In this document: positions 18,387-59,631 of the stretch, one piece after another | Position numbering within the stretch: position 1 is the stretch's first letter | How the letters are laid out: every line of letters begins with the position of its first letter | From: a virus | Lineage: Duplodnaviria > Caudoviricetes | Reading direction: 5' to 3' (one strand) | DNA length: 62,894 bases | Virus record (IMG/VR): IMGVR_UViG_3300032295_002704 | Location: 1 to 62,894 of that record | Program-made: the position numbers and the translations under genes | Notes under the pieces: model-generated | Told to the model about the DNA's origin: nothing | Database searches by the model: none | Seen by the model: the letters and a program-made list of their open reading frames with translations, nothing else

Positions 18387-21300
18387 TTATGTTCCCGTAC
18401 AAACTGGATCTTTAACTCTTGTATCAAACGGTCCTGTGCTACTAACTATGTTATAGTTAGGATATCCAAAAACAGGCGACTTGTCATCCCAATAATCTCT
18501 TAATTCTGGGATAGTTTTCACAGTTGCGGGTAAGGATGGTGCGGGAGCCGTCCAAACTCGATTACCAACCGCGTAACTTACAGTAGTAGAATTATTTAAG
18601 GTAATTGAGCCATTTTGAATAGCGGAGATATTGGCACCGTACCAGTTAAGTATTGTGCTTGAAGTCAAACTGTAGTTGTAGTTTCCTGCTCCATCGCAAT
18701 CTTCAAAAGTAGAAGTGCAAGTAACATCTAAATCATTTGAGCCGTCCGTTACAAAGGGATGTTGACCAAAGATACCACAGGTACCATTGTAATCTTCTGA
18801 AAAAGTAGAACTTTCGCTTCTATTTTCACAAACTGGTAGCGGGAAAGGATAATTATCACAATTTCCGCACGCAACCGTGCCGTCAGGCGTAGCAGGATTT
18901 ACCAAAGAAATACAACTTGGTCCATCACACAAGATATATGAATATCCGCAATCAGGAGAGTCCGTCACAGTTTCCGTCACACATTGCAAATCCTGCGGAT
19001 TGCAGCCACACGAAGTGCGTTCACTATCTAATGCCCAAGTCATACTTCTAGTGCGTTTACCATTTGTATATATTGGAGGATCATAGCAAACTCCCGGCAA
19101 AGACCCGATGCACAAACCAGCAAAAACTGAGTTAGGACAACTTGGACCACCGGCAGTTACAGCATCACAGCCCAATTGTTCTTCTGTAGAATAAGCATAA
19201 CTATACGAAACACTCTGAGTCCAAGGATGTCTTACGTGCTTGGTGTAATAACCATCATTTGTAGCAGGATCACAAGCAAACCACGATTCGCAACACGCAG
19301 TGGAACAGTCTACGTCAATTCTAGTTAAGCTACCGTTGCCAGCAACGTCATCCACAGTAACTTCGCCAATCGATGCCCTAAACAGGGCACAACCATTGGT
19401 AAACGCCGTGTAATCTCTAAACACAATACCAACACCACACATTCTGTCCCAAGAGTCACATGAAAAACAACTGAAACCCGGACATTCATTTGCGGTCGCA
19501 TAGCGAGAATCAGAAGCCTGAATACTTCCTCCGGGAATAGTAAAATACATTGGGCCATCTGCTAAGGTAACTTCGGCAAAGCCAACTTTGGTAAGTTCTG
19601 GGTCATAATTCCAAGGTTTAGTAGTGCAAAGTGCCCCGCAAGTTCTACCAATAACCAGTGCTTCTGGAGTGTTAGAACGGGGAATTTCTTCTTCACGAAC
19701 CTTAACTTCTGACCAGTCAATATATTGACACCAACCATAAAGATTAGATCTAATTACTAAAGTAGATGTCAGTGAATTACAAAAATCATTACTACCCGGT
19801 AATGTTGGATCTGAACCGGCCTGCAAGAAAAATGTCCCATCAGGGTCTTGAACCAAAAAGGGCACTTTGATAAGTAATGGAACGTCACACGATTTAAAAA
19901 AGTTATATTCACAAATATATAATGTTGGCTGTGAAACGGTGTAACCATCCCAACCGGCCTTTGACCAAGTTTCAGCATTTAAACCGTTACGAGGTTGATT
20001 GTATGGATGAGGTAATTCTTCGGATTCTCCATTGTTGCATCGCGAGACAGTGTCACACGGGCATCTTTGAGCGGGTATATACCACTTCGTGATGCAATTG
20101 TTGCTTGAGCAGCCTTGGCTTAAAACATAACCAAGAACAACTTGTCTATCTCCGTCACAATCTAAATTTTCAGTTGCAATTCTGCTTGCCTCTGGTGGAA
20201 TGCAGTAATCTAAGTATGGGTCTTGATCGTAATCATAACCAACGCCATACCAATTACAACGTCTGCGGTGTAAGCCGGGCAAAGTGACAGAAGTTGCAAA
20301 AGAACCACTAAAATCTAAAAGTTGTTCCTTATATGAATAGTTATACTCCGTGGGATTACTTGTTCCATAGGAATAAACCCCAGCAGTTTCGCTGGTATCA
20401 TCGTCGATCCAGTAGTCATACGGAAGTATGGTATTTGCTACGAAAGGGGTGTGTGTTGTCATTGCCCCCGTGAACGTAATGGCATTAATCTCATTAACGA
20501 GATCTTCGTCAGTGTACTCAAGCCCTCCCCTATTTAAGGGAATTCCGGTAGAGGCCACAAACGAACCGCTTACTGACAACTGCATTCTTCCTGTAGCAAC
20601 TCTAACAGAAGCCGTCGCAAACGCCGGATCATCCAACGAGATTGAAATAATGTCCTTAGTGGTGATGGGCATACTTGTCCACCACATGTTATTTTGATTT
20701 TGGACGTTTCCGGGTAACGAAGAAGGATCTTTTGGCAATCTGTCGGCTAACAAAGTACATGCCGGAGGCACATAGGCAACGACGTTTTTATCAAAGACAG
20801 ACCCGTAATACTGGGTCGGTACGAGGGTGGGACTCCAAGCACTATTTAATTCGCTATTACCGTGATAATATGGATAGGCTTTTGGCATTATAATGTTAGA
20901 AGCACTTTGATAACTTTCGTCACCATCTGGTGTTTCTGTATAACCCAAAGTATTACGATCCATTATTTCGGAACTTACGTTGACTACGGTAGAAGCCGGG
21001 AAGTTCCTAACATATTCGCTAGCGATAGCAAAATTGAAAATTTGTACGCCTGTGTAGTTATAGGCCCTCAAAGCATTAACAGCATCAATAAATTGACCGA
21101 TAGTTTTACCGGAAGTTTCAAAAGAAATGTTAACTGGGGCACATTGAGTAGGGCCACTTACAGAAATGCCATTAGTGCAAGAGGCGGGGTCAATTTGTAA
21201 CAACTGATCAATGTCATCGTAACCAGTGATGGAACCGACGTAGTAAGGCACCGGGGCCTTAATTGCTACATACATCTCAATGATTTCGGTTTTTAACCAT

Positions 21301-22820
21301 GTCCCACGGGTTTTCATGAAACCAAAGGGACGATAATCATACCCTACTCGCGGAGTAAAGTAATCAACTGATAAAACGCTGGCCACACCGCTTGTTTCGG
21401 GGTTTTCCACCGTGTTATATGGATATGTCCATGCCAAGTGTGTTTTGTTTTCTAAGCCATTACAATAAGATCCGAATGGACCCCAAGGAACATCGGCATG
21501 AAATAGTGGCAAGAACAATTCATAACTACAGTTACTTGGCATTATTCCGCTTGGAACACTGACATTAGTAGTGTTTGGAGCAGTATGCTTTAACTTATCG
21601 TAGTAGTAATTCTTGTAAAGTCTTCCTTCCATTCCCATAAGGAAAAAGGACGGACTTAAAGAATAACATTTATCATTGTATTTGATTACGCTATTGAGAT
21701 TGCCAAATCTATTTGCAAAGGAGTTCGCGAAGCGATCATAGCCAGAAATAAACGGATTATTGTATTGTGGATAAACAATCTTTCCGCCTACCTGCGGTAC
21801 GCAGTCAACAAACCCGTCATATGCCGTAGGAAATACACCGAAAATGTCACTGTTTTCCCAACGACAGTTGGTATTAGTTCCCCATTCAAAATAGTTTTTA
21901 CCTGCTGCTACAGGATTGTAATATGAGTAGGCTGGGTCATCACCATATTGAAAAACGTCAGGGAATGGGTTAAACCGATCATGCAGGACATAATCAACTT
22001 CTATTTTTTGGAAAGGACGGCCACAACCTAGTTTTAAATCAAAATGTGTAAAGAACGGGGCGGTATAACCAGTGTTATATATTACATCTCTGGCTGCTAA
22101 ACCAAATGCACTATTCATTACAGAAGCTAATCTATTCACAATTGCGTCTGGATCTAAGTCATTAACCATGACATAAGCGTCGGTGATGCCACTGTATTTC
22201 AGATACACTCCGGGAGTTTTTGTTAAAACAACACCGGAATTGCCGGGAATAAGATTTAAAAACTCTTGTTCTGGCTCTATGCACCTAAACGGGAACGTAT
22301 TAACAAAACTTGCTACGGCGTTGACCGTGAAATGGTTATCATAGAAGGTCGCACTTAAATTAGTAATTCTTCCTAAAGTATCGTTAACCGTACCGGTTGC
22401 AGCAAAACTTCTAACGGTATAAGGACCAAGGGCACCGGTAGTACCAATAGTAATTGTTGGTACACCTGCTACAAGGTTATATTGCAGGAAACCGGTCGTG
22501 GCGGGGTCATCCCACTCGACCGTAAAGGCACTTATTGGAGTTGTGCCGGTGCAGTTTTCTAACAGAAATAAACGAAACCGCTGCGTTTCGCAAATTTCAT
22601 ACTGGGTACCTTCGCAAAAGGAATCGTCTTTGACAAATATTCTGTTTTTAAATAGATTGGCATAATCGCCCGTGTTGCAGGTTTCTGTAGGATTAAGCAT
22701 TGCCCCGCAAGGAATGCCTTCCCAATAAGTACCAGTACTCACGGTTTCACAGCAACAATCTATAAAATATCCGCCCCTAACAATGATTTTGTTATCGGCA
22801 TTAGTCCTAAAATAATTCAT
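18387..22820 (-). CDS. Very large Cys-rich putative tail-tip/receptor-binding protein
   Basis: ~1477 aa, IDCCCE near the N-terminus, dozens of Cys in the C-terminal third; ATG at 22820 overlaps upstream TGA. Confidence 0.6.
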   Translation of the reverse strand: MNYFRTNADNKIIVRGGYFIDCCCETVSTGTYWEGIPCGAMLNPTETCNTGDYANLFKNRIFVKDDSFCEGTQYEICETQRFRLFLLENCTGTTPISAFTVEWDDPATTGFLQYNLVAGVPTITIGTTGALGPYTVRSFAATGTVNDTLGRITNLSATFYDNHFTVNAVASFVNTFPFRCIEPEQEFLNLIPGNSGVVLTKTPGVYLKYSGITDAYVMVNDLDPDAIVNRLASVMNSAFGLAARDVIYNTGYTAPFFTHFDLKLGCGRPFQKIEVDYVLHDRFNPFPDVFQYGDDPAYSYYNPVAAGKNYFEWGTNTNCRWENSDIFGVFPTAYDGFVDCVPQVGGKIVYPQYNNPFISGYDRFANSFANRFGNLNSVIKYNDKCYSLSPSFFLMGMEGRLYKNYYYDKLKHTAPNTTNVSVPSGIMPSNCSYELFLPLFHADVPWGPFGSYCNGLENKTHLAWTYPYNTVENPETSGVASVLSVDYFTPRVGYDYRPFGFMKTRGTWLKTEIIEMYVAIKAPVPYYVGSITGYDDIDQLLQIDPASCTNGISVSGPTQCAPVNISFETSGKTIGQFIDAVNALRAYNYTGVQIFNFAIASEYVRNFPASTVVNVSSEIMDRNTLGYTETPDGDESYQSASNIIMPKAYPYYHGNSELNSAWSPTLVPTQYYGSVFDKNVVAYVPPACTLLADRLPKDPSSLPGNVQNQNNMWWTSMPITTKDIISISLDDPAFATASVRVATGRMQLSVSGSFVASTGIPLNRGGLEYTDEDLVNEINAITFTGAMTTHTPFVANTILPYDYWIDDDTSETAGVYSYGTSNPTEYNYSYKEQLLDFSGSFATSVTLPGLHRRRCNWYGVGYDYDQDPYLDYCIPPEASRIATENLDCDGDRQVVLGYVLSQGCSSNNCITKWYIPAQRCPCDTVSRCNNGESEELPHPYNQPRNGLNAETWSKAGWDGYTVSQPTLYICEYNFFKSCDVPLLIKVPFLVQDPDGTFFLQAGSDPTLPGSNDFCNSLTSTLVIRSNLYGWCQYIDWSEVKVREEEIPRSNTPEALVIGRTCGALCTTKPWNYDPELTKVGFAEVTLADGPMYFTIPGGSIQASDSRYATANECPGFSCFSCDSWDRMCGVGIVFRDYTAFTNGCALFRASIGEVTVDDVAGNGSLTRIDVDCSTACCESWFACDPATNDGYYTKHVRHPWTQSVSYSYAYSTEEQLGCDAVTAGGPSCPNSVFAGLCIGSLPGVCYDPPIYTNGKRTRSMTWALDSERTSCGCNPQDLQCVTETVTDSPDCGYSYILCDGPSCISLVNPATPDGTVACGNCDNYPFPLPVCENRSESSTFSEDYNGTCGIFGQHPFVTDGSNDLDVTCTSTFEDCDGAGNYNYSLTSSTILNWYGANISAIQNGSITLNNSTTVSYAVGNRVWTAPAPSLPATVKTIPELRDYWDDKSPVFGYPNYNIVSSTGPFDTRVKDPVCTGT

Positions 22821-22957
22821 CAAAATATCCTGATAATCTCTTTATTTGGCAAATACAGATAAGTTGAATACTCGCTATATGATATATAGTTGGGACTTTC
22901 ACTATCCTCAACTACTTCCAAAATCATAAAACGAGAATCACTTACAATATCGTCCAT
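22820..22957 (-). CDS. Small hypothetical protein (45 aa, not in ORF track)
   Basis: MDDIVSDSRFMILEVVEDSESPNYISYSEYSTYLYLPNKEIIRIF*; fills the gap exactly, TGATG coupling. Confidence 0.6.
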   Translation of the reverse strand: MDDIVSDSRFMILEVVEDSESPNYISYSEYSTYLYLPNKEIIRIF

Positions 22958-22960
22958 ATA

Positions 22961-25066
22961 TTAAGCCTGTACAAAGGTAAATCTAGCAGTGATACCGCTT
23001 GCCAGCGTGGTTGGCGTATAACGGATATAATTGCCAATTGCATCAGCAGAAGCACTCCAAGAATTCCATGTAGTTCCGTCTGTTGAATACTGCCACGTAC
23101 CGTTCGCTGATGCGGTCACAGTATCATCTAGTAATAGAGTGTTTGTTGCAGCATTGTAGATTAACACTCGTAGATTTGGAATATTTGAACCCCAAGCAGC
23201 AACTTGCCTTGCAGCAAAGATCTTGCTTGCAGCACTGCTTTTTGCTACAGAAGGTTGATAATGGCTGTCCATTGAAGTATCTTCATAGACAACGCCTATT
23301 CCGTGAATCTTAGCAGGTACCCCGGTGTCGCCAAACATTCTAAACTCAATCTTGAATTGAATTGCACTGCCAGAACCGTTGATTGTACCTGTGTCAGGTA
23401 CCAAAGTCCACGAACCCGTGTTATCTGTAATGCCAGTTGTACGATAGTAAACCCTGTACGGGGAGCGTGTCAACGCAAATATATCATTACCTGCAAACAA
23501 CGATGCATTCACAAAAACCTTTCGCAATTTATTACAATTTGGTAATGAGATTGAAGGAGTCAAAACCACTTGGTTTGTAGTGTTTGCATATAGCCAGTCT
23601 ACGCCACATGGAACGGCATATAACTGGTGAGTTGTGAGTGTGGCGGTATTCCGTGTAAAATAGTAGATACCACCCTCAGACCAAACTGAAAACGTACTTG
23701 CGTTTATACTTGGAAAGGGAGTTATATCAGAATCCGCCGTACTTTGATCTGTTTGACGTAATTCATTCAGAAAGATATTATCAAATTGATTACTGTTCGT
23801 ATTATATTGGCAAATATATCCTCTAAAGTTAGATGTTAAAATAATAAAACGATCCATAGAATCTGAATAGTCAATACTATTCATTGCGTTCGTAACAATA
23901 AAAGTATTGGTGCCTCCGGGAGGAATTTCTGCCATTGAATCTGCTAAGAAAGTAGTAGATCCAGTCGTTATGGCAGACTCAATAACCCTATAAACACGGG
24001 TCGTAGTTACAAAGTAAAAACATTTTACTCCACTTCCGGGACCGTGACCTGTCGTAACGATACGACCATTATTGGCAGCACTTAGTGTACCGGTTAAAGT
24101 TGGAGAGGCACCGGTTGAGAAAACAAAAGATGCTACAGAACGACCAGCAGACAAAGATGTTAAACTTGCTCTAATGTCGTATTTAAAAATTCTGGCCGTA
24201 GTAGTACCGTCTAAAACCCACACAAAGTGGCTAGTGTTACTACTTGTAGAGTCAAGACCTATGCCTCTGGCAACAGTGTTAGTATTAGTTACTGCATCAG
24301 CAAGCCAGTAAGTGGCACGAACGTTATCTGTGGTTGTCGCATCAGCAATGTTTAAACCAGAACTGTTAAAGATGTTAATATTACAACCCTTAACAAGGAA
24401 TAAACCACCGTTAGTTGCAGTAGCGTTAGTCATTGAACTAACAAACCGAAGTTCTTCAATAACATATGGCGTACCAGAAGCAACAGTGCCAGCAGTTGTT
24501 CCCAATGTTAAACCGGTATCACTGGCAATGGCTGTGATTTGATACCAAGTAGTAATTTGGGTCGGATCAGTTGAGCCAAAGCCAATTCTAGCACCAACGG
24601 CAATTCTTTCAGATTGGAAACCTGTGCCTGAACCTGTGACGGCGGTGCCTGATGCACCAACAGTACCAGTTGTGTGAAGGCTCCTTACCGCTCTAAAACC
24701 AGTTACGGTTTTGTTACCAGCCAAAGTAAAGTTCATAGTAATAAAACCTAGATAGGTAAAAGTATTACTAGGAATGTCATATTCATAAGCGACGATACGA
24801 CGAGTAACGGCAGCGGCAGCGTTATCTACGCCAAAAACCCAGTGTTTTGTGCTTGAAAAAGGAATAACAGATGGGAAAGTGATTGGAACAGCGGTTGCTG
24901 CTTCGCTTGGTCGGGCAACAGCAATTGGCATGGGACCGACGAATTTATCAGCATCGGTGGCTCCGGTTTTCTGCTGAATCAATGAACCCAAAAGGGTTTT
25001 GGTAGAATCATAACTACTAATAGACTGCGTAGTACCGCTAAATTGATGCTCAACTGCAATTTTCAT
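22961..25066 (-). CDS. Tail fibre/tail-tip structural protein
   Basis: Thr/Ser/Gly-rich beta protein with fibre-type TGTVGASGTAVTGSGTGF motif. Confidence 0.6.
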   Translation of the reverse strand: MKIAVEHQFSGTTQSISSYDSTKTLLGSLIQQKTGATDADKFVGPMPIAVARPSEAATAVPITFPSVIPFSSTKHWVFGVDNAAAAVTRRIVAYEYDIPSNTFTYLGFITMNFTLAGNKTVTGFRAVRSLHTTGTVGASGTAVTGSGTGFQSERIAVGARIGFGSTDPTQITTWYQITAIASDTGLTLGTTAGTVASGTPYVIEELRFVSSMTNATATNGGLFLVKGCNINIFNSSGLNIADATTTDNVRATYWLADAVTNTNTVARGIGLDSTSSNTSHFVWVLDGTTTARIFKYDIRASLTSLSAGRSVASFVFSTGASPTLTGTLSAANNGRIVTTGHGPGSGVKCFYFVTTTRVYRVIESAITTGSTTFLADSMAEIPPGGTNTFIVTNAMNSIDYSDSMDRFIILTSNFRGYICQYNTNSNQFDNIFLNELRQTDQSTADSDITPFPSINASTFSVWSEGGIYYFTRNTATLTTHQLYAVPCGVDWLYANTTNQVVLTPSISLPNCNKLRKVFVNASLFAGNDIFALTRSPYRVYYRTTGITDNTGSWTLVPDTGTINGSGSAIQFKIEFRMFGDTGVPAKIHGIGVVYEDTSMDSHYQPSVAKSSAASKIFAARQVAAWGSNIPNLRVLIYNAATNTLLLDDTVTASANGTWQYSTDGTTWNSWSASADAIGNYIRYTPTTLASGITARFTFVQA

Positions 25067-25537
25067 TTAAATATTCCTAATCAAAAGATTAAAGGTTAAA
25101 TCCCTTATCTGTCCTGATATATTTGATACACCCAAAACAATTCTATCACCCAAAACAACGCCTGTCGAAGACCATCCTGTAAAATTACTTCCAGAAGCAA
25201 AAACGGCGTTGTTTAAGCCCGGAATGACTCCCGTGCCAATCATACTAGTAGATACTCCGGCAGAGTTCAACTTGTTAACAGAAATTTGACAGGTGCCCGA
25301 GACATCTGCGTAACATGACCAACCCTGAATAAATCCCGTTGTTCCAACGTAGTGTGTGCTTTTTACACCAGAAGTTATCGGATCTTCACTCATGGCTTGG
25401 AAACCAATAGGACTAACAAGCCCATTAAAGGTAGAACCACTTCCTCCACCCCCACCGCCACCACCTATATCACCAGATATAGCAGCAATGGGAATAGTGC
25501 CAAGTTGAATTTGATTTCCATGTATTTTAGTAGGCAT
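25067..25537 (-). CDS. Small virion structural protein
   Basis: Poly-Gly linker then beta-sandwich-like domain. Confidence 0.55.
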   Translation of the reverse strand: MPTKIHGNQIQLGTIPIAAISGDIGGGGGGGGSGSTFNGLVSPIGFQAMSEDPITSGVKSTHYVGTTGFIQGWSCYADVSGTCQISVNKLNSAGVSTSMIGTGVIPGLNNAVFASGSNFTGWSSTGVVLGDRIVLGVSNISGQIRDLTFNLLIRNI

Positions 25538-30008: not shown

Positions 30009-30017
30009 CCTGCATCC

Positions 30018-45151: not shown

Positions 45152-45646
45152 TTAGTTACGAAGACCGACACTCAACTTGGCAAAGCCGTCTGAGTCACGA
45201 CCAGTCAGGAACTTACCGACAACTGGGTAACCAGAGCCAGCGAAACCTGCCTGATGGAAGAAGAAACCGCTTGGGCCTGCGTAAGCAGTTGTTGGATAAA
45301 CAACGCCAGTGGCAGGAGCAGCACCAGCACCTAGGCAGTTTGTAACAAACTCACCTTCGGTTGCAATTGAAGCCTTGCTGCCGATTTGAACTTCGTTCTT
45401 GGCAGTATTGAGAGCATACTTGCTTAGGTCGATGTTAACAACGTCGTCTAAAAGAAGACCGACAGGAACGCGACCTGAAACTGAGTTGATGACTTCAACT
45501 CGTGAGTTTGTGTCGTCAAGACCCATGCCAACTGGGGCTGAGCCGGTTGAAGCAAACACAAGCTGGCCTTGCTGACCAGTGCTGGTAATGAAGTAAGCAA
45601 CTTCTACCTTACCGTCTAACTGTGATCTGAATGGTTTAAGTGCCAT
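45152..45646 (-). CDS. Capsid decoration/cement protein
   Basis: 164 aa between scaffold and capsid; PVGLLL.DVV...G.F.TN beta-tulip-type pattern. Confidence 0.65.
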   Translation of the reverse strand: MALKPFRSQLDGKVEVAYFITSTGQQGQLVFASTGSAPVGMGLDDTNSRVEVINSVSGRVPVGLLLDDVVNIDLSKYALNTAKNEVQIGSKASIATEGEFVTNCLGAGAAPATGVVYPTTAYAGPSGFFFHQAGFAGSGYPVVGKFLTGRDSDGFAKLSVGLRN

Positions 45647-49052: not shown

Positions 49053-49059
49053 ATATGTT

Positions 49060-49068: not shown

Positions 49069-49081
49069 ATTGAATCGTGAT

Positions 49082-51657: not shown

Positions 51658-51946
51658 TCACGATTTTGTAGAGCATCTGTTCAAAATCTTTTTCTTTGCC
51701 AGTAATCGCCTTGTGATGTTGCTTGCATAGGCATATGCCATTGGCCGTGTCATATCGCAAATGAGATTTGTCGGCAAATCTTTTGATATGATGGACTTCG
51801 ATATCATCCTTTGATCCGCAGTTTGGCCACTGGCAAGTTTTTCCGTCTCTTAGCTGAACCGCCCCCATCCAAGCGACATATCTAGGAGAACTTCTGTCTT
51901 GTTTATTAAGTAAGTGTTTATTTATGATTCGCGGTATAAAAGTCAT
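51623..51946 (-). CDS. HNH endonuclease
   Basis: RDG..CQ..CG...HHI...NGICLC..HH. Confidence 0.88.
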   Translation of the reverse strand: MTFIPRIINKHLLNKQDRSSPRYVAWMGAVQLRDGKTCQWPNCGSKDDIEVHHIKRFADKSHLRYDTANGICLCKQHHKAITGKEKDFEQMLYKIVIENNAKQNKDK

Positions 51947-52977
51947 TTTTTATTATTCCTATAATAATTTATATCACTTAATACCATGATTTTAACCAAT
52001 TCTTTGAAAGTAATTTTAGGCGACCAGTTTAATTCTCTCTGTGCCAATGAGGGATCACCCTTCAAATTTTTGACTTCCAGTGGTCTAAAAAGATTAGAAC
52101 AAGTTTCAACAATCACCTTATTGTTTGCCGTGTCAGTATATTTAAAATGGCCGTTATCAAGTTCTACGAAGGTGAAGTTAATTCCGGCACAACGAAGAGC
52201 TTCTTCTAAAAACTCTTTTGGTGTATGGGTTTCGCCCGTGCCAATTAAATAACTCTTTGGAGCCTGCTGCTGTAGCATGAGATGCATTGCTTCGCAGAAG
52301 TCGCGAGAATGTCCCCAATCCCTGCTAGCATGTAGGTTGCCTAGTTTTAGACTGTCTGTAGCATTGGGATTGTTGACGTACTTGCCGATCCAGTCGGTAA
52401 TCTTTCTTGTAACGAATTCTTTACCACGGCGTTCGCTTTCGTGGTTCATTAGCATGCCCACAACAACAAACAAACCATACGCGTCCCTATAGATGTCGCA
52501 GAGATGGTGAGCAAATACCTTCGCCGCCGCATAGGGACTCTTAGGTACTAAAGAAGTGTTTTCGTTTTGTGATTCAGTGATACCACCGAATTCTTCGCTA
52601 GAACCCGCCTGATAGAATTTGGTCTTTGGAGAGAACTGTCTAACTGCTTCTAGTAGTCTTAAAACTCCTAGACCAGTAACGTCAGCACAATATAAAGGCT
52701 GATTAAATGACACGCCAACGTGTGACATTGCTCCTAAGTTATAAAGTTCGTCTGGCTTAATGTCGTTGATAACGTGATTGATACTAGCAGCATCAGAAAG
52801 ATCACCCTCAACAAAAATTACATTTCCCAATCCCATCTGATCAACAAACGACCAATCCCTGTGGGCCGAACGCCTGACCATACAATATACTTTGTAGTTT
52901 TTGCTTAAAAGTATCTGACAAAGATATGGACCATCCTGCCCTGTAGAACCTGTTATTAACGCTGTTTTCTGAACCAT
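51943..52977 (-). CDS. gmd: GDP-mannose 4,6-dehydratase
   Basis: ALITG.TGQDG.YL, YNLGAMSHV.VSF, PKSPYAAAK, NHES.RRG.EFVTRKI, LGNL...RDWG, RP.EV..L.GD. Confidence 0.96.
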   Translation of the reverse strand: MVQKTALITGSTGQDGPYLCQILLSKNYKVYCMVRRSAHRDWSFVDQMGLGNVIFVEGDLSDAASINHVINDIKPDELYNLGAMSHVGVSFNQPLYCADVTGLGVLRLLEAVRQFSPKTKFYQAGSSEEFGGITESQNENTSLVPKSPYAAAKVFAHHLCDIYRDAYGLFVVVGMLMNHESERRGKEFVTRKITDWIGKYVNNPNATDSLKLGNLHASRDWGHSRDFCEAMHLMLQQQAPKSYLIGTGETHTPKEFLEEALRCAGINFTFVELDNGHFKYTDTANNKVIVETCSNLFRPLEVKNLKGDPSLAQRELNWSPKITFKELVKIMVLSDINYYRNNKK

Positions 52978-54704: not shown

Positions 54705-54705
54705 T

Positions 54706-54870
54706 TTAACCTAACACTCTTAGTGCCTTTAGCGTCTTTAACAGAACCTTCATGTAACCGCCACCACCGGCAGAAGAACCGGCTCCAACAACAGGGGGAG
54801 GGGTATCAACACCTTGGAAAGCAAAGGGATAACCACTTTGTGGGATAGAATTTCTAGCAAATAACTTCAT
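54706..54870 (-). CDS. Small Pro/Gly-rich protein (54 aa, not in ORF track)
   Basis: MKLFARNSIPQSGYPFAFQGVDTPPPVVGAGSSAGGGGYMKVLLKTLKALRVLG*; fills the gap exactly. Confidence 0.6.
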   Translation of the reverse strand: MKLFARNSIPQSGYPFAFQGVDTPPPVVGAGSSAGGGGYMKVLLKTLKALRVLG

Positions 54871-54871
54871 A

Positions 54872-55477
54872 TTACGGTGTCAGTGTTACACTGCTCCTAT
54901 TACCGTTGGTATCAACCGTCATAACCATTCTTGTAGTACCACTGGCATTTGCTGCTCTAAAGGTAATGACACCACTGCTTGGGGTGGCACCACTTACTGT
55001 ACCACAGGCAAATGACAGAAGTAAACGAAGGGCTTGATCTACGCTAAAGCCGTCCACGCCAGTAGCACTTAGAGAGCCGATCTGTGAGTTACTTGCGTTA
55101 AAACCTACGTTTGTAAAGAACAATTCTGAGTTGTCAGCAGCAGTAGAACTACCACTTAAAGAAACAACGTTAACGTCTGGTAAAGTAGATGCTGTCGGGC
55201 AAATTACTACGTCTAAAACAATATCAGAGTTTGACGAAGTAGATGTGAGTATTACTACATCGGCGTTTGTTTCTGCCTGAGTCAAGTTAAAAACATAAAC
55301 ACCATCACCTAAATCGGTGGGGTTTGTATCGTTTGTAGCAACAAAAGCACCGCCATCTTTGGAAATCTGACCAGTGATACCAGCAGCCAAACCAGCCACT
55401 CGTCTGCCTGTACTTAAACTGGTCGCTACAACGTATATATTTTGACCAGCAAAATTCTTATATAAAAAATTACTCAT
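54872..55477 (-). CDS. Virion accessory protein (Ig-like N-terminal domain)
   Basis: ISKDGGAF...GVY.FNLT.AETN and QALRL...G.VSG...R....D.NGNR motifs. Confidence 0.55.
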   Translation of the reverse strand: MSNFLYKNFAGQNIYVVATSLSTGRRVAGLAAGITGQISKDGGAFVATNDTNPTDLGDGVYVFNLTQAETNADVVILTSTSSNSDIVLDVVICPTASTLPDVNVVSLSGSSTAADNSELFFTNVGFNASNSQIGSLSATGVDGFSVDQALRLLLSFACGTVSGATPSSGVITFRAANASGTTRMVMTVDTNGNRSSVTLTP

Positions 55478-57096
55478 TATCTAATCCTTCTAGAGGTTCG
55501 GCGTTCTAATTTATCTAGTTTGTTATTATTTGATACACTTGGGTAAGGTAACAAATCAAAAGCCGTACTATCGCATAAAATGATCGGAACTAGTCCAGCA
55601 GCCTCGGCTTGCAAAACACCACTTACAAAGTTTTGCCTACCAGACAAGGTTGTCGGGTTTGCGTAATCAAACTGATTAATGATGATAAATGCGTCATTGT
55701 TGCCGTATAAACGGTTGGCTAATTCACAACGCAATCCATCCCATTGATTGTATGGGTAGTAGCTGCTAAGACAATAGAAACTTGTTCTGTCGTCTGTATA
55801 GTTTTCGCTGAAAATTACACCATCTGGACGTTTATTACGCATTTCTACCAGTGAACCAGTTACCCATGGGTTACTCAATAAAGATGCCATCGCATCCATA
55901 CCTAAACCATCTGTCCACACCAACCAACCGTTTGTGGTGTTACGACGAATCAGATCATTACCTGTGGCATTAATAGTTGGCTTTCGCAATTGCTGGAAAG
56001 TATAATTAACGTCTAAAATACCACTGTTAACGTTTTGATTATAGATTTGAGGGCTGTCCCAACCAGTTGCGTTGGTATTGTAGGTAGTCCATGTATTTCC
56101 ATGATAACTATATACTTTTATATTATTTGCGATTGACCATTGTTTAATTTGCCATAATCTGTTTATTAGATGATCTGGCATAGCTTCCAAAGAATTACTT
56201 AAGAAGTCGGTATTTGGTTGGTGTCCAGCAGGATTCCAGAACATGATAGAATCAAAGCCTTTGGCCTTAAGTTGCTCAGGACGAGGTAAACCAGAGAATA
56301 TGTCAGCCCAGTTGGTAGTAGTCTCCCAAGGTCTAACAGTTCCACTATTCAATATTCCGTAGTAACGAGGATTACCAGAATTGCCGACAACACCCAAAGC
56401 CATAAAGAAACCGTAAACTCTTCCGTTGCTACGCAACGAATTGCGATAATTTGTGAAGGTAGACTGACACCAATCAATATACGGCTGACAAAGATTTAAT
56501 GAAATACCGGTAGTAACAGGAGAACCAGAGTGCTCTCTTAACCAAACCTTAAAGTTCATTGTTTCGCCAGAAGAGAAGAAGTCTTGGGGAATTACACTGC
56601 CGTAAGCAGGACTTGTTCCGGTTATGAAACCATTAATGTATGCGTGACAGTTAGTACCACTATATGACGTTCGTAATCTGCAAGTGGCAGGATAATTAGT
56701 ACTAATACCAATGGCTCTACCACCGGTATGTTCAAAAACCATGCAAGATGACCACAATCCACGGTTAATGTCAGTCGAAGTAAAATTCCGTGAACCATAG
56801 TAGTTAGCTCTAACATCATCATACCCGGTTACAACTGGGTCACGGTTCCAAGAAGGATCAGCAAGCCAAACATGGGTAGGTAAAGGATTAACACCGCTTT
56901 GGCCCCATCCAATGTCAAAACTAAAGTTAATACCAGATTGGTTGCCACTGGTAAGATTGGTAATGGTTACATCAATGTCAACACCGCTAGTTACAACCGT
57001 AGGTGTGACGACCACGTTCAACACGCCGGTGTTGACGGCAACGGAGTTGAAATGCGTTACGTTAGTTCGGTTGTAAAATCCTGTAGTAAACGGCAT
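55477..57096 (-). CDS. Putative virion-associated glycoside-hydrolase-like protein
   Basis: Beta N-terminal domain then TIM-like GFDSIMFW, DGLGMDA, IFSEN segments. Confidence 0.4.
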   Translation of the reverse strand: MPFTTGFYNRTNVTHFNSVAVNTGVLNVVVTPTVVTSGVDIDVTITNLTSGNQSGINFSFDIGWGQSGVNPLPTHVWLADPSWNRDPVVTGYDDVRANYYGSRNFTSTDINRGLWSSCMVFEHTGGRAIGISTNYPATCRLRTSYSGTNCHAYINGFITGTSPAYGSVIPQDFFSSGETMNFKVWLREHSGSPVTTGISLNLCQPYIDWCQSTFTNYRNSLRSNGRVYGFFMALGVVGNSGNPRYYGILNSGTVRPWETTTNWADIFSGLPRPEQLKAKGFDSIMFWNPAGHQPNTDFLSNSLEAMPDHLINRLWQIKQWSIANNIKVYSYHGNTWTTYNTNATGWDSPQIYNQNVNSGILDVNYTFQQLRKPTINATGNDLIRRNTTNGWLVWTDGLGMDAMASLLSNPWVTGSLVEMRNKRPDGVIFSENYTDDRTSFYCLSSYYPYNQWDGLRCELANRLYGNNDAFIIINQFDYANPTTLSGRQNFVSGVLQAEAAGLVPIILCDSTAFDLLPYPSVSNNNKLDKLERRTSRRIR

Positions 57097-58205
57097 TAAT
57101 AAACCCTTGTTCTATATAGAGGAACATATGTACCCATTGCACCTATGTTGTTATTGAAAAATCTACGATTACCAACACCGCTTGCATCTATGACATAGCG
57201 GAAGTCGTTAGTGCCGGTACTGACAAACATAACGCTGCCAGAACTTGTTGTGTTGTTAAATACAAATTGGGTGTCAATACCTGTTCCAAGAGGAGTGTTT
57301 TCAAAGTGATTATTGAAAATGTGTACCGGGCGAAGACCGGTTGGAGTTTGCTCGACACCGTTACCGTCTGCCTGAGTAATAACTCTTCTGCCGTTCATAA
57401 ATAGACACTCGTTAATATTTACGCGTCCAGTCATGTTAATATCATTTCTGACAGCAATACAATAGCCGGTATTTGAAGCAAACGTACAATGTCTAATCAT
57501 GCCGATACCTTGAGAAGAAGCAGCTAGTAAGACACCTCTTGGAGTCAAAAATAGACAATTGGTGACGGTCGAGTTGTTGTTCAATCCAACACCGATACCG
57601 CTACCGAAAACTATACAGTTATTTAAGTGAGCCTCCGTAGAAGCCAAAGAGAAGGCATACCCACCCTGACTTGATACAACAGAAGTACAGTTTGTAGCTT
57701 GACCTCGAAAACCCACACCAAAAGCAGCCAAAGATGATGAGTTAACACCTGTGTAGTTATGCACATGCACATTGTCGAATATGTTACACTGCCCGTTAAA
57801 ATTGAAAATAGTGGTGTTCGCTGTTCCGGAAACTACTAGATTTGCGAACATCACATATTGTGATGTGGAAGAACCAATAGAAACAGTGTTAGATAAATTG
57901 ATAAGTGGTAATCCAGAAGTATTATAACTTCCGTTAGGATTGAGTCTTACGTTTAAAGGTTCCAGAGTATTAGCATCATACCCTATAATTCTAGCAGGAA
58001 GTAAAAAACTCGTATTGCCAGTTGAAGTAATTGTCGAAGTAATGTTATAAGTACCGTTGTTTAAAACCCGGTATTCCACGCCACCACTTATACTTGCTAA
58101 GGCTTCTGCCATAGTCCAAGCTCGGTTAGCCCCAGCAATGCCAGTAGTAGAACCGTTACCTCCGGTTACTGATAGTGCAGAAATATATCTAATAGTTGTT
58201 GTCAT
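57096..58205 (-). CDS. Right-handed beta-helix (pectin-lyase-like) protein
   Basis: GNG....AW.MAEAL, GTYN; repeated NC/HC/EC Asn-ladder coils; DFR and IGA C-terminus. Confidence 0.7.
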   Translation of the reverse strand: MTTTIRYISALSVTGGNGSTTGIAGANRAWTMAEALASISGGVEYRVLNNGTYNITSTITSTGNTSFLLPARIIGYDANTLEPLNVRLNPNGSYNTSGLPLINLSNTVSIGSSTSQYVMFANLVVSGTANTTIFNFNGQCNIFDNVHVHNYTGVNSSSLAAFGVGFRGQATNCTSVVSSQGGYAFSLASTEAHLNNCIVFGSGIGVGLNNNSTVTNCLFLTPRGVLLAASSQGIGMIRHCTFASNTGYCIAVRNDINMTGRVNINECLFMNGRRVITQADGNGVEQTPTGLRPVHIFNNHFENTPLGTGIDTQFVFNNTTSSGSVMFVSTGTNDFRYVIDASGVGNRRFFNNNIGAMGTYVPLYRTRVY

Positions 58206-58215
58206 TTATGAATCC

Positions 58216-59631
58216 TTAAACTTCTGGTAAACCGCCCCCACCACCGGGATTACTGATAATTCCGCTTCCATCTTGGTACACAGTATTTTTGATATTGTTG
58301 TAATATCTAACTCGTGAAGATATGTATCTTACATGCTCTAACATCTTTGTATAATTTTCAGTATTAACTCCGGCACCATAAAACCATTTCCAGTGGTTAA
58401 TACCACGGCTGGCTCCATAGTTCCAAACAAACTCCAAATCACTTTGAGAAGGAGTAAATGTATTTGAGTTAGCAATGTATTGGCCAGAAGGCTGAGTCCA
58501 AGGTATTACAGGAAGACGGTTACCGCTTACGCACGCATCAAGTAGACGAGTGTTAAAGGTTCGCCAAATCTGAGAGTTTCCAGTACCAAAACCCGCATTG
58601 TCATCCCATCTACCGCCCGTCAATTGAGGACCATATAGGTTTGGTGCTTGGTGGTCCATGTCACTTACCTTAACGTTTCCGGTTGACATAGAGAAAGCAC
58701 TTGCTAAGTTAAAACCGTCATATACAACGTTACCACCTATTTGGGCGGTCTGTTGATAATTACCACAGTTCATTCTTGGGAAAAATTGCTTAAGTGGTTC
58801 GTACAAAGCCTTTGTCATTGCATAATCACGGCTAAGATTACCTAGATAAGTGAAGAATGACATGAAACCAGAGTTACTTGCGTGGAAAACACTTTGTGTA
58901 AGATTTGGAGGAGAACCTCCTCTTGCTAAGTAATCACTATATAGGCCGGACATCGTTCTGTCAACAAATTGCCCGCTAATGGTCACTCGGCCTATAGTTT
59001 CTGTGTTAAATCTAGGATCACCTGTTACAGAAATCCACCAACCAACACCGCTTCCAGTAAGGATTGAATCGATACCATCTTCATAGTCAATATCAACTAA
59101 TTCTGGATAAGCCAAGGTTTCGTAATATATACCGCTACGGGTGTCCAATTCACGCTTTAATCCGCTAGCAAACTCAAGTGTCCAAGCAGACCAAAATTGA
59201 CGGCCAGCAGCAGTGAAGGGAGTGTTTAAAAATCCGCCAATAGCATCCGAGGGGTGATGCATTAAAGAGTAACCAGTACTCCAAGTTCCGCTATTACCCC
59301 AGTTTTGGAGAATTAAAAATCCCCAATAGTTATCATTGTAAAAGGTGTTATAACCTTTGTAGTAACCAAAATATTCTTGCCAGTCTGCTACACGAGAAGC
59401 AGCACCCGAGGGTGTGTTTGTCGTAGTACTAAAACCACTTGGCAAAGATGAAACCTGATATCCAGAAGTCAATGCTGCGTTTATGTTACCTAAGAAAGCT
59501 CTTGCTGGTAACACAACATTGTAGTGGTTGTGTATTTGTGTAGAAGAAGGAGGAACGGCCCACAGGTAGTGAAGGCTTTGTACGTTTGGCTTAGTTGTTC
59601 TTAAGTATCTGTTATTTCTAGAAATTGCCAT
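58216..59631 (-). CDS. Putative virion-associated glycoside-hydrolase-like protein
   Basis: IDYE, P..QFFP...GNY, DHQAPNLY, PVIPW, ASRGI TIM-barrel-like segments. Confidence 0.4.
   Translation of the reverse strand: MAISRNNRYLRTTKPNVQSLHYLWAVPPSSTQIHNHYNVVLPARAFLGNINAALTSGYQVSSLPSGFSTTTNTPSGAASRVADWQEYFGYYKGYNTFYNDNYWGFLILQNWGNSGTWSTGYSLMHHPSDAIGGFLNTPFTAAGRQFWSAWTLEFASGLKRELDTRSGIYYETLAYPELVDIDYEDGIDSILTGSGVGWWISVTGDPRFNTETIGRVTISGQFVDRTMSGLYSDYLARGGSPPNLTQSVFHASNSGFMSFFTYLGNLSRDYAMTKALYEPLKQFFPRMNCGNYQQTAQIGGNVVYDGFNLASAFSMSTGNVKVSDMDHQAPNLYGPQLTGGRWDDNAGFGTGNSQIWRTFNTRLLDACVSGNRLPVIPWTQPSGQYIANSNTFTPSQSDLEFVWNYGASRGINHWKWFYGAGVNTENYTKMLEHVRYISSRVRYYNNIKNTVYQDGSGIISNPGGGGGLPEV

What the first reader, a model, noticed from the sequence alone, without database searches (positions are those of the whole stretch)
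18387..59631. Ser/Thr-Gly signature restricted to predicted surface virion proteins: candidate sequon of a phage-encoded virion O-glycosylation system
Seen, from approximate hand counts of SG+TG dipeptides: ~35 in the 614-aa fibre (25537-27381), ~10 in 156 aa (25067-25537), ~12 in the 298-aa neck protein, ~11 in the 347-aa tail tube, ~7 in the 164-aa decoration protein and ~22 in the 539-aa accessory protein. Capsid (332 aa) has ~2, portal (635 aa) ~2 and terminase (703 aa) ~3. The dipeptides are spread singly through unrelated folds, often as A/V/P/T-(S/T)-G-hydrophobic (ASGV, VSGL, PTGV, TTGF), rather than in tandem repeats. Known: Ser-Gly is the O-xylosylation site of proteoglycans, and some mycobacteriophages glycosylate virion proteins with their own GTs. 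Inference: the glycan cluster at 4356-15577, plus gmd, builds a methylated, 6-deoxyhexose-containing glycan coat on S/T-G sites of exposed virion proteins.
Basis: partly seen in the sequence, partly recalled or inferred. Interest (0 to 1): 0.9.

Follow-up and report, generated by a model that had tools for sequence, protein, structure and literature searches.

The report
Ser/Thr-Gly excess in phage tail proteins
The outer tail, fibre and decoration proteins of this large uncultured water phage really do carry far more Ser-Gly and Thr-Gly pairs than chance predicts, and the phage carries a big sugar-building gene cluster, but nothing yet shows that these pairs are where sugars are attached; they look more like a favoured structural turn.

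Summary
After composition correction, 14 tail/fibre/decoration proteins hold 228 [ST]G against 128.7 expected (z 10.4). Capsid, portal, terminase and adaptors hold 17 against 20.1. SG and TG are the two most enriched of 400 dipeptides. Sites are conserved in a 53-79% identical relative: 78 of 93.

Part of this is generic. Ser/Thr/Gly-rich ORFs of 10 unrelated phages give SG 1.28 and TG 1.02; the window gives 1.96 and 1.56.

The glycan cluster is real: GT4-type, GT2 and GT11 transferases, a sugar O-methyltransferase, nucleotide-sugar enzymes and GMD. It belongs to the core of a family of 140-180 kb phages with T5-type tail tubes. All 15 near-complete genomes have GMD, GT1 and GT2. No GT-less relative exists to test.

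Across the family only SG is enriched (1.80; TG 0.95), although every member has the cluster.

The glycan chemistry is plausible. The link between sequon and glycan is unsupported. A lineage-amplified turn motif is the better reading (about 0.5); the sequon reading sits near 0.15.

The parts
4356..6032 (+). 558-aa soluble GT4/GT1-type glycosyltransferase with extra C-terminal sequence
   Evidence: Pfam Glycos_transf_1, 41.6 bits. 23-28% identical to glycosyltransferases of the cultured siphophages S-CBS4, S-EIVl, Mae-JY09, TJE1 and phiPsal1. No membrane segment.
6029..7186 (+). 385-aa possible GT1-type glycosyltransferase (weak)
   Evidence: Pfam Glycos_transf_1, 17.2 bits, below the cut-off. 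In family genomes three GT1 ORFs lie side by side.
7176..8171 (+). 331-aa GT1/GT4 glycosyltransferase
   Evidence: Pfam Glycos_transf_1, 64.8 bits.
8584..9282 (+). 232-aa GT2 glycosyltransferase
   Evidence: Pfam Glycos_transf_2, 89 bits.
10550..11299 (+). 249-aa GT11-like (fucosyltransferase family) protein
   Evidence: Pfam Glyco_transf_11, 28.8 bits against a cut-off of 23.9.
11296..12087 (+). 263-aa sugar O-methyltransferase candidate
   Evidence: NCBIfam TIGR04371 'putative sugar O-methyltransferase', 65.1 bits against a cut-off of 44. Pfam methyltransferase domains.
13225..13830 (+). 201-aa HAD hydrolase, beta-phosphoglucomutase family
   Evidence: Pfam HAD_2, 109 bits. TIGR02009, 102 bits, below its cut-off.
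13827..14489 (+). 220-aa methyltransferase
   Evidence: Pfam Methyltransf_24, 53.8 bits.
14476..15177 (+). 233-aa sugar-1-phosphate nucleotidyltransferase
   Evidence: Pfam NTP_transf_3 and NTP_transferase. Weak RmlA/GlmU-type NCBIfam matches.
15167..15577 (+). 136-aa cupin, possibly a sugar isomerase or epimerase
   Evidence: Pfam Cupin_2, 24.7 bits, below the cut-off. The function is inferred from its neighbours only.
51943..52977 (-). GDP-mannose 4,6-dehydratase in the late structural strand
   Evidence: Pfam GDP_Man_Dehyd, 349.6 bits. TIGR01472, 353 bits, under the equivalog cut-off of 415. Same position next to the terminase region in L002, L003 and L004.
18387..22823 (-). 1478-aa protein of unknown function at the distal end of the tail module; no [ST]G excess
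   Evidence: 23 observed against 19.5 expected. No Pfam or PHROG match.
22961..25066 (-). 701-aa tail-fibre-like protein
   Evidence: phrog_1591 tail fiber, E 2e-4. [ST]G 22 against 14.1, O/E 1.55.
25067..25537 (-). 156-aa Gly-rich protein
   Evidence: [ST]G 10 against 5.9.
25537..27381 (-). 614-aa fibre/baseplate-like protein with the highest site count
   Evidence: [ST]G 35 against 16.5, z 5.5. The protein atlas gives only leads to viral baseplate/fibre clusters, score 0.88.
27378..30008 (-). 876-aa tail protein
   Evidence: [ST]G 21 against 11.3, z 3.3.
30018..32117 (-). 699-aa tail protein
   Evidence: [ST]G 18 against 12.5.
32130..37658 (-). Tape measure protein, 1842 aa
   Evidence: Pfam PhageMin_Tail, 69.9 bits. 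PHROG tape-measure families. [ST]G 28 against 20.6; extended motif 0; [ND]G 5 against 18.1.
39904..40947 (-). Major tail tube protein of the T5 pb6 / P74-26 duplicated-domain type
   Evidence: AlphaFold model pLDDT 81.8. Foldseek top hits are T5, DT57C and P74-26 tube proteins, E 2e-11 to 6e-9. [ST]G 11 against 6.8. More than 3500 homologues.
40993..41889 (-). 298-aa protein upstream of the tube gene ('neck' by position only)
   Evidence: [ST]G 12 against 5.3, z 3.5. No family or PDB match.
43545..44012 (-). 155-aa Gly-rich protein next to the capsid gene
   Evidence: [ST]G 6 against 3.8. All 6 sites are kept in L002.
44118..45116 (-). Major capsid protein; no excess
   Evidence: PDB 6wkk_A 'Gp27 major capsid protein', E 4.4e-7. 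[ST]G 2 against 3.3.
45152..45646 (-). 164-aa protein ('decoration' by position only)
   Evidence: [ST]G 7 against 3.4. No family or PDB match.
47145..49052 (-). 635-aa protein ('portal' by position only); no excess
   Evidence: [ST]G 2 against 2.5. No Pfam, PHROG or PDB match.
49082..51193 (-). Terminase large subunit; no excess
   Evidence: phrog_2, E 2.7e-23. tblastn to annotated terminases, about 26% identity. [ST]G 3 against 4.2.
54872..59631 (-). Four adjacent Ser/Thr/Gly-rich proteins of unknown function (201, 539, 369 and 471 aa)
   Evidence: [ST]G 7 against 4.7, 22 against 8.1, 15 against 8.7 and 19 against 8.9. No Pfam or PHROG match. The 539-aa model failed (pLDDT 42.4). That they are virion proteins is inferred, not shown.

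Best explanation
The Ser/Thr-Gly excess is real, and selection maintains it. It most likely marks a structural element, not a glycosylation sequon.

The element would be a tight turn or bulge. A small residue (Pro, Ala or Val) ends one beta-strand. The hydroxyl of Ser or Thr caps the backbone. Gly takes the conformation that only Gly takes easily. A hydrophobic residue then starts the next strand. Beta-rich tail, fibre and decoration proteins of all tailed phages use this element somewhat more than chance predicts. This phage lineage uses it much more, partly where other phages have Asn-Gly or Asp-Gly.

Separately, the phage encodes a soluble, cytoplasmic, multi-enzyme pathway for a methylated glycan containing a 6-deoxyhexose. 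This pathway is a core trait of its whole family. Virion proteins are a reasonable target for it, but the acceptor site cannot be read from the [ST]G pattern.

Shown: the enrichment, its distribution, its conservation, the baseline in controls, the family-wide cluster and the tube fold. Inferred: the turn geometry and the reason for the amplification.
For: 1. A baseline exists in unrelated phages. Ser/Thr/Gly-rich ORFs of 10 control phages (34,644 aa) give SG 403 against 314 (1.28) and TG 322 against 315 (1.02). Combined per-phage values run 0.99-1.44, leaving aside SPP1, whose 135 aa give 1.86. The extended motif gives 56 against 37.1 (1.51).

2. The signal is graded, not all-or-none. The extended motif O/E is 1.51 in controls, 2.55 in the family (443 against 173.9), 2.64 in the outgroup (101 against 38.3), 3.50 in close relatives and 4.71 in the window.

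3. TG is not enriched across the family. In 79 loci (176,792 aa), SG is 3077 against 1705 (1.80) but TG is 1389 against 1458 (0.95). Yet GMD, GT1 and GT2 are each in 15 of 15 near-complete genomes.

4. NG is depleted where SG is enriched. NG is 0.73 in the family and 0.82 in the window, but 0.80-1.92 in nine controls, seven of them above 1 (SPP1, with 135 aa, left aside).

5. In the tube family, at sites 174, 207 and 212 Ser/Thr exchange with Asn/Asp. Gly is kept in 61%, 32% and 93% of 121 sequences.

6. Across 8 orthologue sets, Asn/Asp make up 30% of replacements before a kept Gly, against 21% at other Ser/Thr positions.

7. Ser before Gly uses AGY codons, one step from Asn codons, in 62% of cases against 39% elsewhere in the window (p 7e-6). 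The same trend is weaker in the family and the controls.

8. In the tube model, 8 of 11 sites lie in loop, hairpin or tail positions by DSSP. Two sites (117, 127) are almost invariant in the tube domain, and one of them (127) sits inside a long strand.

9. Density is very high: 34% of all Gly in these proteins follow Ser or Thr.
Against: - The window's excess is well above the control baseline: 207 observed against about 135 baseline-adjusted, Poisson p 6e-9.
- The context is sharper than in controls. Charged residues at -1 are 0.21x in the window, 0.62x in the family and 0.85x in controls. Hydrophobic residues at +2 are 1.47x, 1.08x and 0.84x.
- The extended motif is almost confined to the external set: 40 of 41 occurrences.
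- The Asn/Asp exchange signal is modest.
- Ser/Thr before Gly are kept far more than other Ser/Thr: 81 of 93 against 385 of 628 versus L002, p 4e-7, and 69.7% against 35.4% of cells family-wide. A needed hydroxyl fits a sequon as well as a turn.
- I had no atomic coordinates, so I did not measure turn geometry or exposure.
- The controls are only 10 phages. I picked them, and most are model coliphages.
Confidence: 0.5

Rival explanations
1. [PAV]-[ST]-G-hydrophobic is the acceptor motif of a phage-encoded cytoplasmic O-glycosylation system. The soluble glycosyltransferases would coat exposed tail, fibre and decoration proteins with a methylated glycan containing a 6-deoxyhexose.
For: - The enrichment is strong and confined to the external set: 228 against 128.7, and 40 of 41 extended motifs.
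- Sites are conserved: 78 of 93.
- The glycan cluster holds GT1/GT4, GT2, GT11, a sugar O-methyltransferase and GMD and has no membrane segments.
- The cluster is core to the family: 15 of 15 genomes.
- gmd lies in the late strand next to the packaging genes.
- The nearest cultured homologues of the 558-aa enzyme lie inside morphogenesis modules. In S-CBS4 they sit between portal and head protease, with a galactosyltransferase and a methyltransferase. In TJE1 they sit just upstream of the terminase genes, with a nucleotidyltransferase, an epimerase and a methyltransferase.
- Virion glycosylation by phage enzymes is documented for mycobacteriophages (passages in PMC12619734 and PMC12363180).
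Against: - TG is not enriched family-wide although the cluster is family-wide.
- A weaker version of the same bias occurs in phages with no such cluster, such as lambda, T5, HK97 and Mu.
- There is no BLAST similarity to Che8 gp108-110.
- The reported mycobacteriophage sites are at C-termini, not scattered.
- The 1478-aa distal tail protein shows no excess.
- Some sites are invariant inside the tube domain, one of them inside a strand.
- One site per 17 residues in the fibre would be an extreme load.
- No known bacterial sequon matches.
Confidence: 0.15
2. The amplification is driven by avoidance of Asn-Gly, which deamidates easily (recalled chemistry), in long-lived extracellular particles. 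Turn positions that would be Asn-Gly have been replaced by Ser-Gly, and in this sub-lineage also by Thr-Gly. This is a special case of the structural reading that adds a stated selective reason.
For: - NG O/E is 0.73 in the family's Ser/Thr/Gly-rich ORFs and 0.87 in its other ORFs. It is 0.82 in the window. [ND]G is 0.28 in the tape measure. NG is above 1 in seven of nine controls.
- AGY codons (Asn AAY to Ser AGY is a single transition) are enriched at Ser-Gly.
- Asn/Asp alternate with Ser/Thr before Gly in the tube family.
Against: - Total [STND]G is still raised: window 1.45 against controls 1.19. Replacement alone does not account for the excess.
- The outgroup has SG 1.71 but NG 1.12.
- DG is not depleted in the window's rich set (1.23).
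- There is no direct evidence on particle lifetime.
Confidence: 0.15
3. It is a nucleotide-level or gene-calling artefact, for example a DNA word or a codon-pair bias.
For: Ser before Gly prefers AGC and AGT codons.
Against: - The excess is absent from capsid, portal, terminase and non-structural genes of the same genome and strand.
- It holds across six Ser and four Thr codons.
- It is kept at the protein level in relatives with 53-79% identity.
- The ORFs are confirmed by homologues.
Confidence: 0.03

Closest known systems
Virion glycosylation of mycobacteriophages Che8, Corndog and Myrna (Freeman et al. 2023; the paper is not held, so it is known here only from passages in PMC12619734 and PMC12363180)
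   Same: The phage encodes its own glycosyltransferases. The proposed targets are virion proteins assembled in the cytoplasm. Capsid-side and tail-tube proteins are among the candidates.
   Different: No BLAST similarity between Che8 gp108-110 and any window protein. The reported glycans sit at the C-termini of capsid and tube, not at scattered internal sites. Che8's own Ser/Thr/Gly-rich ORFs show almost no [ST]G excess (1.13). The cluster here is much larger and includes nucleotide-sugar synthesis.
Glycosyltransferase/methyltransferase cassettes in the morphogenesis modules of cultured siphophages S-CBS4 and TJE1
   Same: Their glycosyltransferases align with residues 1-435 of the 558-aa enzyme at 23-24% identity. 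They travel with a methyltransferase and a second transferase or nucleotide-sugar enzymes.
   Different: Their function is untested as far as I could see. They lie between head or packaging genes, whereas the window's cluster lies beyond the distal end of the tail module and only gmd sits among the late genes. S-CBS4 shows SG 1.45 and TG 0.83.
Chlorovirus PBCV-1 capsid glycosylation (recalled from memory; not checked in any call)
   Same: A virus-encoded GMD, several soluble glycosyltransferases and sugar methyltransferases build a methylated, deoxyhexose-rich glycan on a structural protein, independent of host membrane machinery.
   Different: It is a eukaryotic virus with N-linked glycans at atypical sequons. 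No homology was tested here.
ST-turn / Asx-turn followed by Gly in beta-hairpins (textbook structural motif; recalled)
   Same: Ser/Thr before Gly, exchange with Asn/Asp, location in loops between strands, and hydrophobic flanks.
   Different: The frequency here is about 1.5 times that in other phages' tail proteins, and the flanking preferences are sharper. Geometry was not measured.
Phage T5 (Demerecviridae) virion architecture
   Same: The duplicated-domain tail tube protein has T5 pb6-type proteins as its best structural matches. The late-gene order runs terminase, 635-aa, 484-aa and 164-aa proteins, capsid, connector-sized proteins, tube and tape measure. It resembles the T5 order seen.
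   Different: No sequence-level match to any cultured phage for the tube or fibre proteins. The genome is about 160 kb. T5's Ser/Thr/Gly-rich ORFs give [ST]G 1.27.

Membership tests
Phage-encoded virion O-glycosylation system (Che8 type) | The phage encodes glycosyltransferases | tested here: met
   GT1/GT4, GT2 and GT11 domains at 4356-11299.
Phage-encoded virion O-glycosylation system (Che8 type) | Homology to the Che8 glycosyltransferases gp108-110 (gp110 is called essential for capsid glycosylation in the PMC12363180 passage) | tested here: not met
   blastp of Che8 gp108, gp109 and gp110 against all 58 window ORFs: no hit at E <= 0.01. Structure-level similarity was not tested.
Phage-encoded virion O-glycosylation system (Che8 type) | Glycan demonstrably attached to virion proteins | not testable with these tools
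   This needs mass spectrometry or glycan staining. No cultured member was found.
Proteoglycan-type Ser-Gly O-xylosylation | Acidic residues flanking Ser-Gly (recalled) and a xylosyltransferase | tested here: not met
   Charged residues are depleted around the sites: 0.21x at -1 and 0.56x at +2. No such transferase family appears among the Pfam hits.
Bacteroidota general O-glycosylation motif D-[ST]-[AILVMT] (motif recalled) | The motif is enriched in target proteins | tested here: not met
   External set: 15 observed against 23.4 expected, O/E 0.64.
Cytoplasmic N-glycosylation at N-x-[ST] (HMW1C type; recalled) | The sequon is enriched in target proteins | tested here: inconclusive
   External set: 121 against 97.4, z 2.6, with 4 of 500 shuffles reaching it. 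No GT41-type enzyme appears among the Pfam hits.
ST-turn/Asx-turn plus Gly structural motif | Ser/Thr interchange with Asn/Asp while Gly is kept | tested here: inconclusive
   Clear at tube sites 174, 207 and 212. Pooled over 8 orthologue sets, Asn/Asp are 30% of replacements against 21% at other Ser/Thr positions.
ST-turn/Asx-turn plus Gly structural motif | Sites lie in turns or loops between strands | tested here: inconclusive
   Tube model secondary structure: 8 of 11 sites lie in loop, hairpin or tail positions, 1 inside a strand, 1 at a strand end and 1 at an isolated bridge. There were no coordinates, so turn type was not determined. The 539-aa model was too poor to use.
ST-turn/Asx-turn plus Gly structural motif | Present in unrelated proteins without a glycosylation system | tested here: met
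   Controls: SG 1.28 and extended motif 1.51.
T5 pb6-type duplicated tail tube protein (39904-40947) | Two tube domains in one chain, matching solved pb6 / P74-26 tubes | tested here: met
   Model pLDDT 81.8. Foldseek: 7qg9_G E 2.2e-11, 9iny_A (T5 tube) 3.1e-9, 8ed0_A (P74-26) 6.4e-9, probability 1.00.
GDP-mannose 4,6-dehydratase (51943-52977) | Full-length match to the family models | tested here: met
   Pfam PF16363, 349.6 bits over positions 1-332. TIGR01472, 353 bits, which is below NCBI's equivalog cut-off of 415. Family membership is met; the exact product is not proven.

The most novel reading that the evidence does not exclude
A whole family of 140-180 kb aquatic siphophages with T5-type tail tubes coats its tail, fibre and decoration proteins with a self-made methylated deoxyhexose glycan. 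Soluble glycosyltransferases would recognise a minimal motif, small residue then Ser/Thr then Gly then hydrophobic residue, at dozens of sites per protein. That would be a new bacterial-virus O-glycosylation sequon.
Probability: 0.15. Interest if true: 0.85.

Novelty: new variant of a known kind. Interest (0 to 1): 0.5.

Why it matters
If the structural reading holds, the finding is a caution. Short 'sequons' read from counts need a baseline from unrelated proteins of the same class. Here that baseline explains about a third of the raw excess (roughly 17 of 89 extra sites).

The more durable result is a side product. A very large, uncultured family of phages, with more than 3500 tube homologues, always carries a multi-enzyme glycan pathway with soluble transferases and a GMD gene among its late genes. 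A core trait of that kind suggests a function essential to the virus. Virion glycosylation is the leading candidate for that function, with DNA or host-surface modification as the alternatives. Phage glycan coats matter for immune recognition, adsorption and particle stability.

If the sequon reading were right, it would give a site-level, testable rule for phage glycoproteins.

Tried and rejected
- GT-less relatives test: not possible. Inside the family, 25, 28 and 27 of the 29 large records examined have GMD, GT1 and GT2, and 15 of 15 records at least 90% complete have each. I picked these 29 from the 80 loci because their contigs are at least 105 kb.
- The outgroup first looked GT-less: 0 of 5 fragments, including the outgroup records, had GT1, and 0 of 5 outgroup fragments had GT2. 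Its largest record (234 kb, 89% complete) has two GT1 genes and a sugar dehydratase/epimerase-type match. A 77-kb record has GT2 genes.
- Structure mapping: the tube model gave secondary structure only. The 539-aa model failed (pLDDT 42.4, four sequences), so I ran no fold search on it. Solvent exposure was not computed.
- Paralogy or repeats as the source of the counts: rejected.
- Proteoglycan-like, Bacteroidota-like and N-x-S/T sequons: see the membership tests.
- Cultured relatives: none for the DNA, fibre or tube. The terminase is only about 26% identical to those of Bacillus phages.
- PDB sequence searches of the 558-aa transferase gave only generic GT4 enzymes. NCBIfam gave no specific family.
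- Literature: searches found no paper on a Ser/Thr-Gly acceptor motif in phage virions. This covers only the held library. PMC10527164 (Freeman et al. 2023) is not held, so its site data and supplements could bear on the claim and were not seen. PMC13419713 as held had no relevant text. PMC12014285 mentions glycosylation only for animal viruses.
- Complex prediction, sequencing-run tools, the search of protein representatives and the third homologous-protein search were not used.

Rows dropped or duplicated:
- One search used 79 of the 80 loci. L034 was left out because it is the same contig as L002.
- In one search, 5 of 13 proteins were skipped for having fewer than 8 orthologues.
- SPP1 contributed only 135 aa to the controls.
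- The outgroup pool mixes pieces of G003-G005 with loci L122-L194, and some of those come from the same contigs (for example L124 and L180). Its counts therefore contain some duplication.
- The 24% Ser+Thr+Gly threshold and the mechanical ORF calling are my own choices.

Full report
WHAT THE WINDOW IS

The window is an IMG/VR virus record of 62,894 bases that CheckV rates 39% complete. That implies a genome of about 160 kb. No cultured phage matches its DNA, its fibre protein or its tube protein. The large terminase is about 26% identical to terminases of Bacillus phages such as Stills.

The minus strand from 18387 to 59631 is a late module. These parts are identified:
- Terminase: phrog_2, E 2.7e-23.
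- Major capsid protein: PDB 6wkk_A, E 4.4e-7.
- Tape measure: PhageMin_Tail, 69.9 bits.
- Tail tube: the model has pLDDT 81.8, and the best structural matches are the duplicated-domain tubes of T5, DT57C and P74-26.

'Portal', 'decoration' and 'neck' are positional labels only. The four Ser/Thr/Gly-rich proteins at 54872-59631 have no family match. That they are virion proteins is an inference.

THE OBSERVATION

All nine hand counts checked are exact. With composition held fixed by per-protein shuffling:

| Protein | O/E | z |
|---|---|---|
| 614-aa fibre-like | 2.12 | 5.5 |
| 539-aa | 2.72 | 5.6 |
| 471-aa | 2.14 | 4.0 |
| 298-aa | 2.28 | 3.5 |
| 876-aa | 1.86 | 3.3 |
| capsid | 0.61 | |
| portal | 0.80 | |
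| terminase | 0.71 | |

Pooled results:
- 14 external proteins: 228 [ST]G against 128.7, z 10.4, 0 of 500 shuffles reach it.
- Tape measure: 28 against 20.6.
- 10 capsid, portal, terminase, adaptor and chaperone proteins: 17 against 20.1.
- Non-structural proteins: 54 against 43.4.

SG and TG rank first and second among all 400 dipeptides. NG (0.72), GG (0.73) and PG (0.69) are depleted. The reverse pair G[ST] is barely raised (1.16).

There is no paralogy between these proteins and there are no internal repeats. The sites have a context:
- Pro, Ala or Val at -1, at 1.7-2.0 times background.
- Hydrophobic residues at +2, at 1.47 times background.
- Charged residues almost excluded at -1, at 0.21 times background.

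The four-residue form [PAV][ST]G[VILFYWM] occurs 40 times in the external set against 7.9 expected. It occurs once in the remaining 12,928 residues. I derived this motif from the same data, so the window's own figure is inflated by selection.

One exception is the 1478-aa distal protein, which has no excess (23 against 19.5).

CONSERVATION

L002 is a syntenic relative with 53-79% protein identity. Against it:
- 78 of 93 aligned [ST]G sites are kept as [ST]G.
- Ser/Thr before Gly stay Ser/Thr in 81 of 93 cases, against 385 of 628 for other Ser/Thr (p 4e-7).
- Gly after Ser/Thr is kept in 84 of 93 cases, against 215 of 292 for other Gly (p 5e-4).

Across 8 orthologue sets from the family, Ser/Thr before a kept Gly remain Ser/Thr in 69.7% of 987 cells. 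Other Ser/Thr remain so in 35.4% of 11,261 cells. The pairs are therefore under selection.

BASELINE

I called ORFs mechanically and pooled those with at least 24% Ser+Thr+Gly.

| Set | SG | TG |
|---|---|---|
| Ten control phages (34,644 aa) | 1.28 | 1.02 |
| Window | 1.96 | 1.56 |
| Close relatives | 1.98 | 1.53 |

The controls are lambda, T4, HK97, T5, Mu, SPP1, L5, Che8, Stills and S-CBS4. Their combined per-phage values run from 0.99 to 1.44, leaving aside SPP1, whose 135 aa give 1.86. T4 gp34, T4 gp37 and lambda J give 1.01, 1.13 and 0.89.

Against a baseline-adjusted expectation of about 135, the window's 207 sites still stand out (p 6e-9). The bias is therefore partly generic and partly specific to this lineage.

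THE FAMILY

The tube protein has more than 3500 homologues, some on contigs of 150-180 kb. A scan with a tube alignment returned 80 loci. I examined 29 of these, those on records of at least 105 kb:
- GMD is present in 25, GT1 in 28 and GT2 in 27.
- Among records at least 90% complete, each is present in 15 of 15.

The glycan cluster is thus a core trait of the family, and the family holds no GT-less relative.

In 79 family loci (176,792 aa of rich ORFs), SG is 1.80 (3077 against 1705), TG is 0.95 (1389 against 1458) and NG is 0.73. The per-locus [ST]G median is 1.41, with a range of 0.64-2.20. The window (1.75) sits near the top of that range.

An outgroup clade of jumbo phages has terminases 23-26% identical to the window's. 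It shows SG 1.71 and TG 1.07. It first looked GT-less, but its largest records do carry glycosyltransferases.

The extended motif is graded:

| Set | O/E |
|---|---|
| Controls | 1.51 |
| Family | 2.55 |
| Outgroup | 2.64 |
| Close relatives | 3.50 |
| Window | 4.71 |

THE GLYCAN CLUSTER

The genes at 4356-15577 encode:
- three GT1/GT4-type proteins, one of them weak
- a GT2
- a GT11-like protein
- a sugar O-methyltransferase candidate (TIGR04371, above its cut-off)
- a second methyltransferase
- a beta-phosphoglucomutase-family HAD enzyme
- a sugar-1-phosphate nucleotidyltransferase
- a cupin

GMD lies at 51943-52977 on the late strand. The same position is seen in L002, L003 and L004.

None of the cluster's proteins has a predicted membrane segment. 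The window shows no flippase, polymerase or oligosaccharyltransferase. This fits a cytoplasmic acceptor.

The 558-aa enzyme's nearest cultured homologues lie in morphogenesis modules of siphophages S-CBS4 and TJE1, together with methyltransferases and sugar enzymes. It has no BLAST similarity to the Che8 virion glycosyltransferases.

Its target is unknown.

SEQUON OR STRUCTURE

Points against the sequon reading:
- The cluster is family-wide, but the TG excess is not.
- Unrelated phages share a weaker form of the bias.
- The effect is graded.
- NG is depleted where SG is raised.
- In the 121-sequence tube alignment, Ser/Thr alternate with Asn/Asp at sites 174, 207 and 212, and Gly is kept in 61%, 32% and 93% of sequences.
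- Ser before Gly prefers AGY codons, which are one step from Asn codons: 62% against 39% elsewhere.
- Two tube sites are almost invariant within the tube domain, and one of them lies inside a strand.
- The mycobacteriophage precedent places glycans at C-termini.

Points for the sequon reading:
- The size of the excess.
- The sharper flanking context compared with controls.
- The near-exclusive placement of the extended motif in external proteins.
- The strong retention of the hydroxyl residue.
- The soluble, core, partly late-encoded pathway.

The Asn/Asp exchange is only modest when pooled: 30% against 21% of replacements. I had no coordinates, so exposure and turn type remain unmeasured.

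I put the structural turn reading at about 0.5. Asn-Gly avoidance as its possible driver gets 0.15, the sequon reading 0.15 and an artefact 0.03. The remainder is unexplained.

LIMITS
- The controls are few, and I chose them.
- ORF calling and the 24% threshold are mechanical.
- Family and outgroup loci are phylogenetically related to one another, and the outgroup pool contains some duplicate contigs.
- Freeman et al. 2023 and all supplements were out of reach.

Noticed in passing
window 4356-15577 and 51943-52977; records G006-G034: The glycan cluster is a core trait of a very large uncultured phage family with genomes of 140-181 kb, some with direct terminal repeats. GMD, GT1 and GT2 are each found in 15 of 15 records that are at least 90% complete. 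Three GT1 ORFs and a GT2 usually lie side by side.
   Followed up: partly
G018:C1:14158-16179 (record behind L060): The GMD match is split into two pieces, model positions 1-191 and 179-332. They lie about 1 kb apart inside one 714-aa open frame. This looks like an in-frame insertion in gmd, possibly an intein. I did not examine it.
   Followed up: no
records G014, G015, G016, G020, G022 and others: The counterpart of the 558-aa glycosyltransferase lies in open frames of 920-1336 aa in several family members. This suggests fusion with a further domain.
   Followed up: no
window 51169-51946: An ERCC4-type nuclease (phrog_3490, E 7e-18) and an HNH endonuclease (phrog_119, E 1e-10) lie between gmd and the large terminase. 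The 162-aa ORF is therefore not an obvious small terminase.
   Followed up: partly
window 32130-37658: The tape measure protein strongly avoids Asn-Gly and Asp-Gly: 5 observed against 18.1 expected, z -3.4.
   Followed up: no
L032 5051-5872 and 7613-8422 (Che8 capsid and major tail protein): Both Che8 proteins reported as glycosylated at their C-termini end in Gly-Ser. The capsid's last 15 residues hold PTGV and KTGS. This is a lead only, because I could not read the paper that gives the true sites.
   Followed up: no
window 57096-58205: This 369-aa Ser/Thr/Gly-rich gene has no counterpart in the syntenic relative L002, where its two neighbours are adjacent. It is an insertion here or a loss there.
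   Followed up: no
window 1845-3431 and 60209-60886: A 528-aa ORF matches only the finger and HHH parts of DNA polymerase III alpha. This suggests a split or truncated polymerase gene. A 225-aa ORF matches the RlaP nucleotidyltransferase family of the RNA repair pathway. No tRNA genes are present in the window.
   Followed up: no
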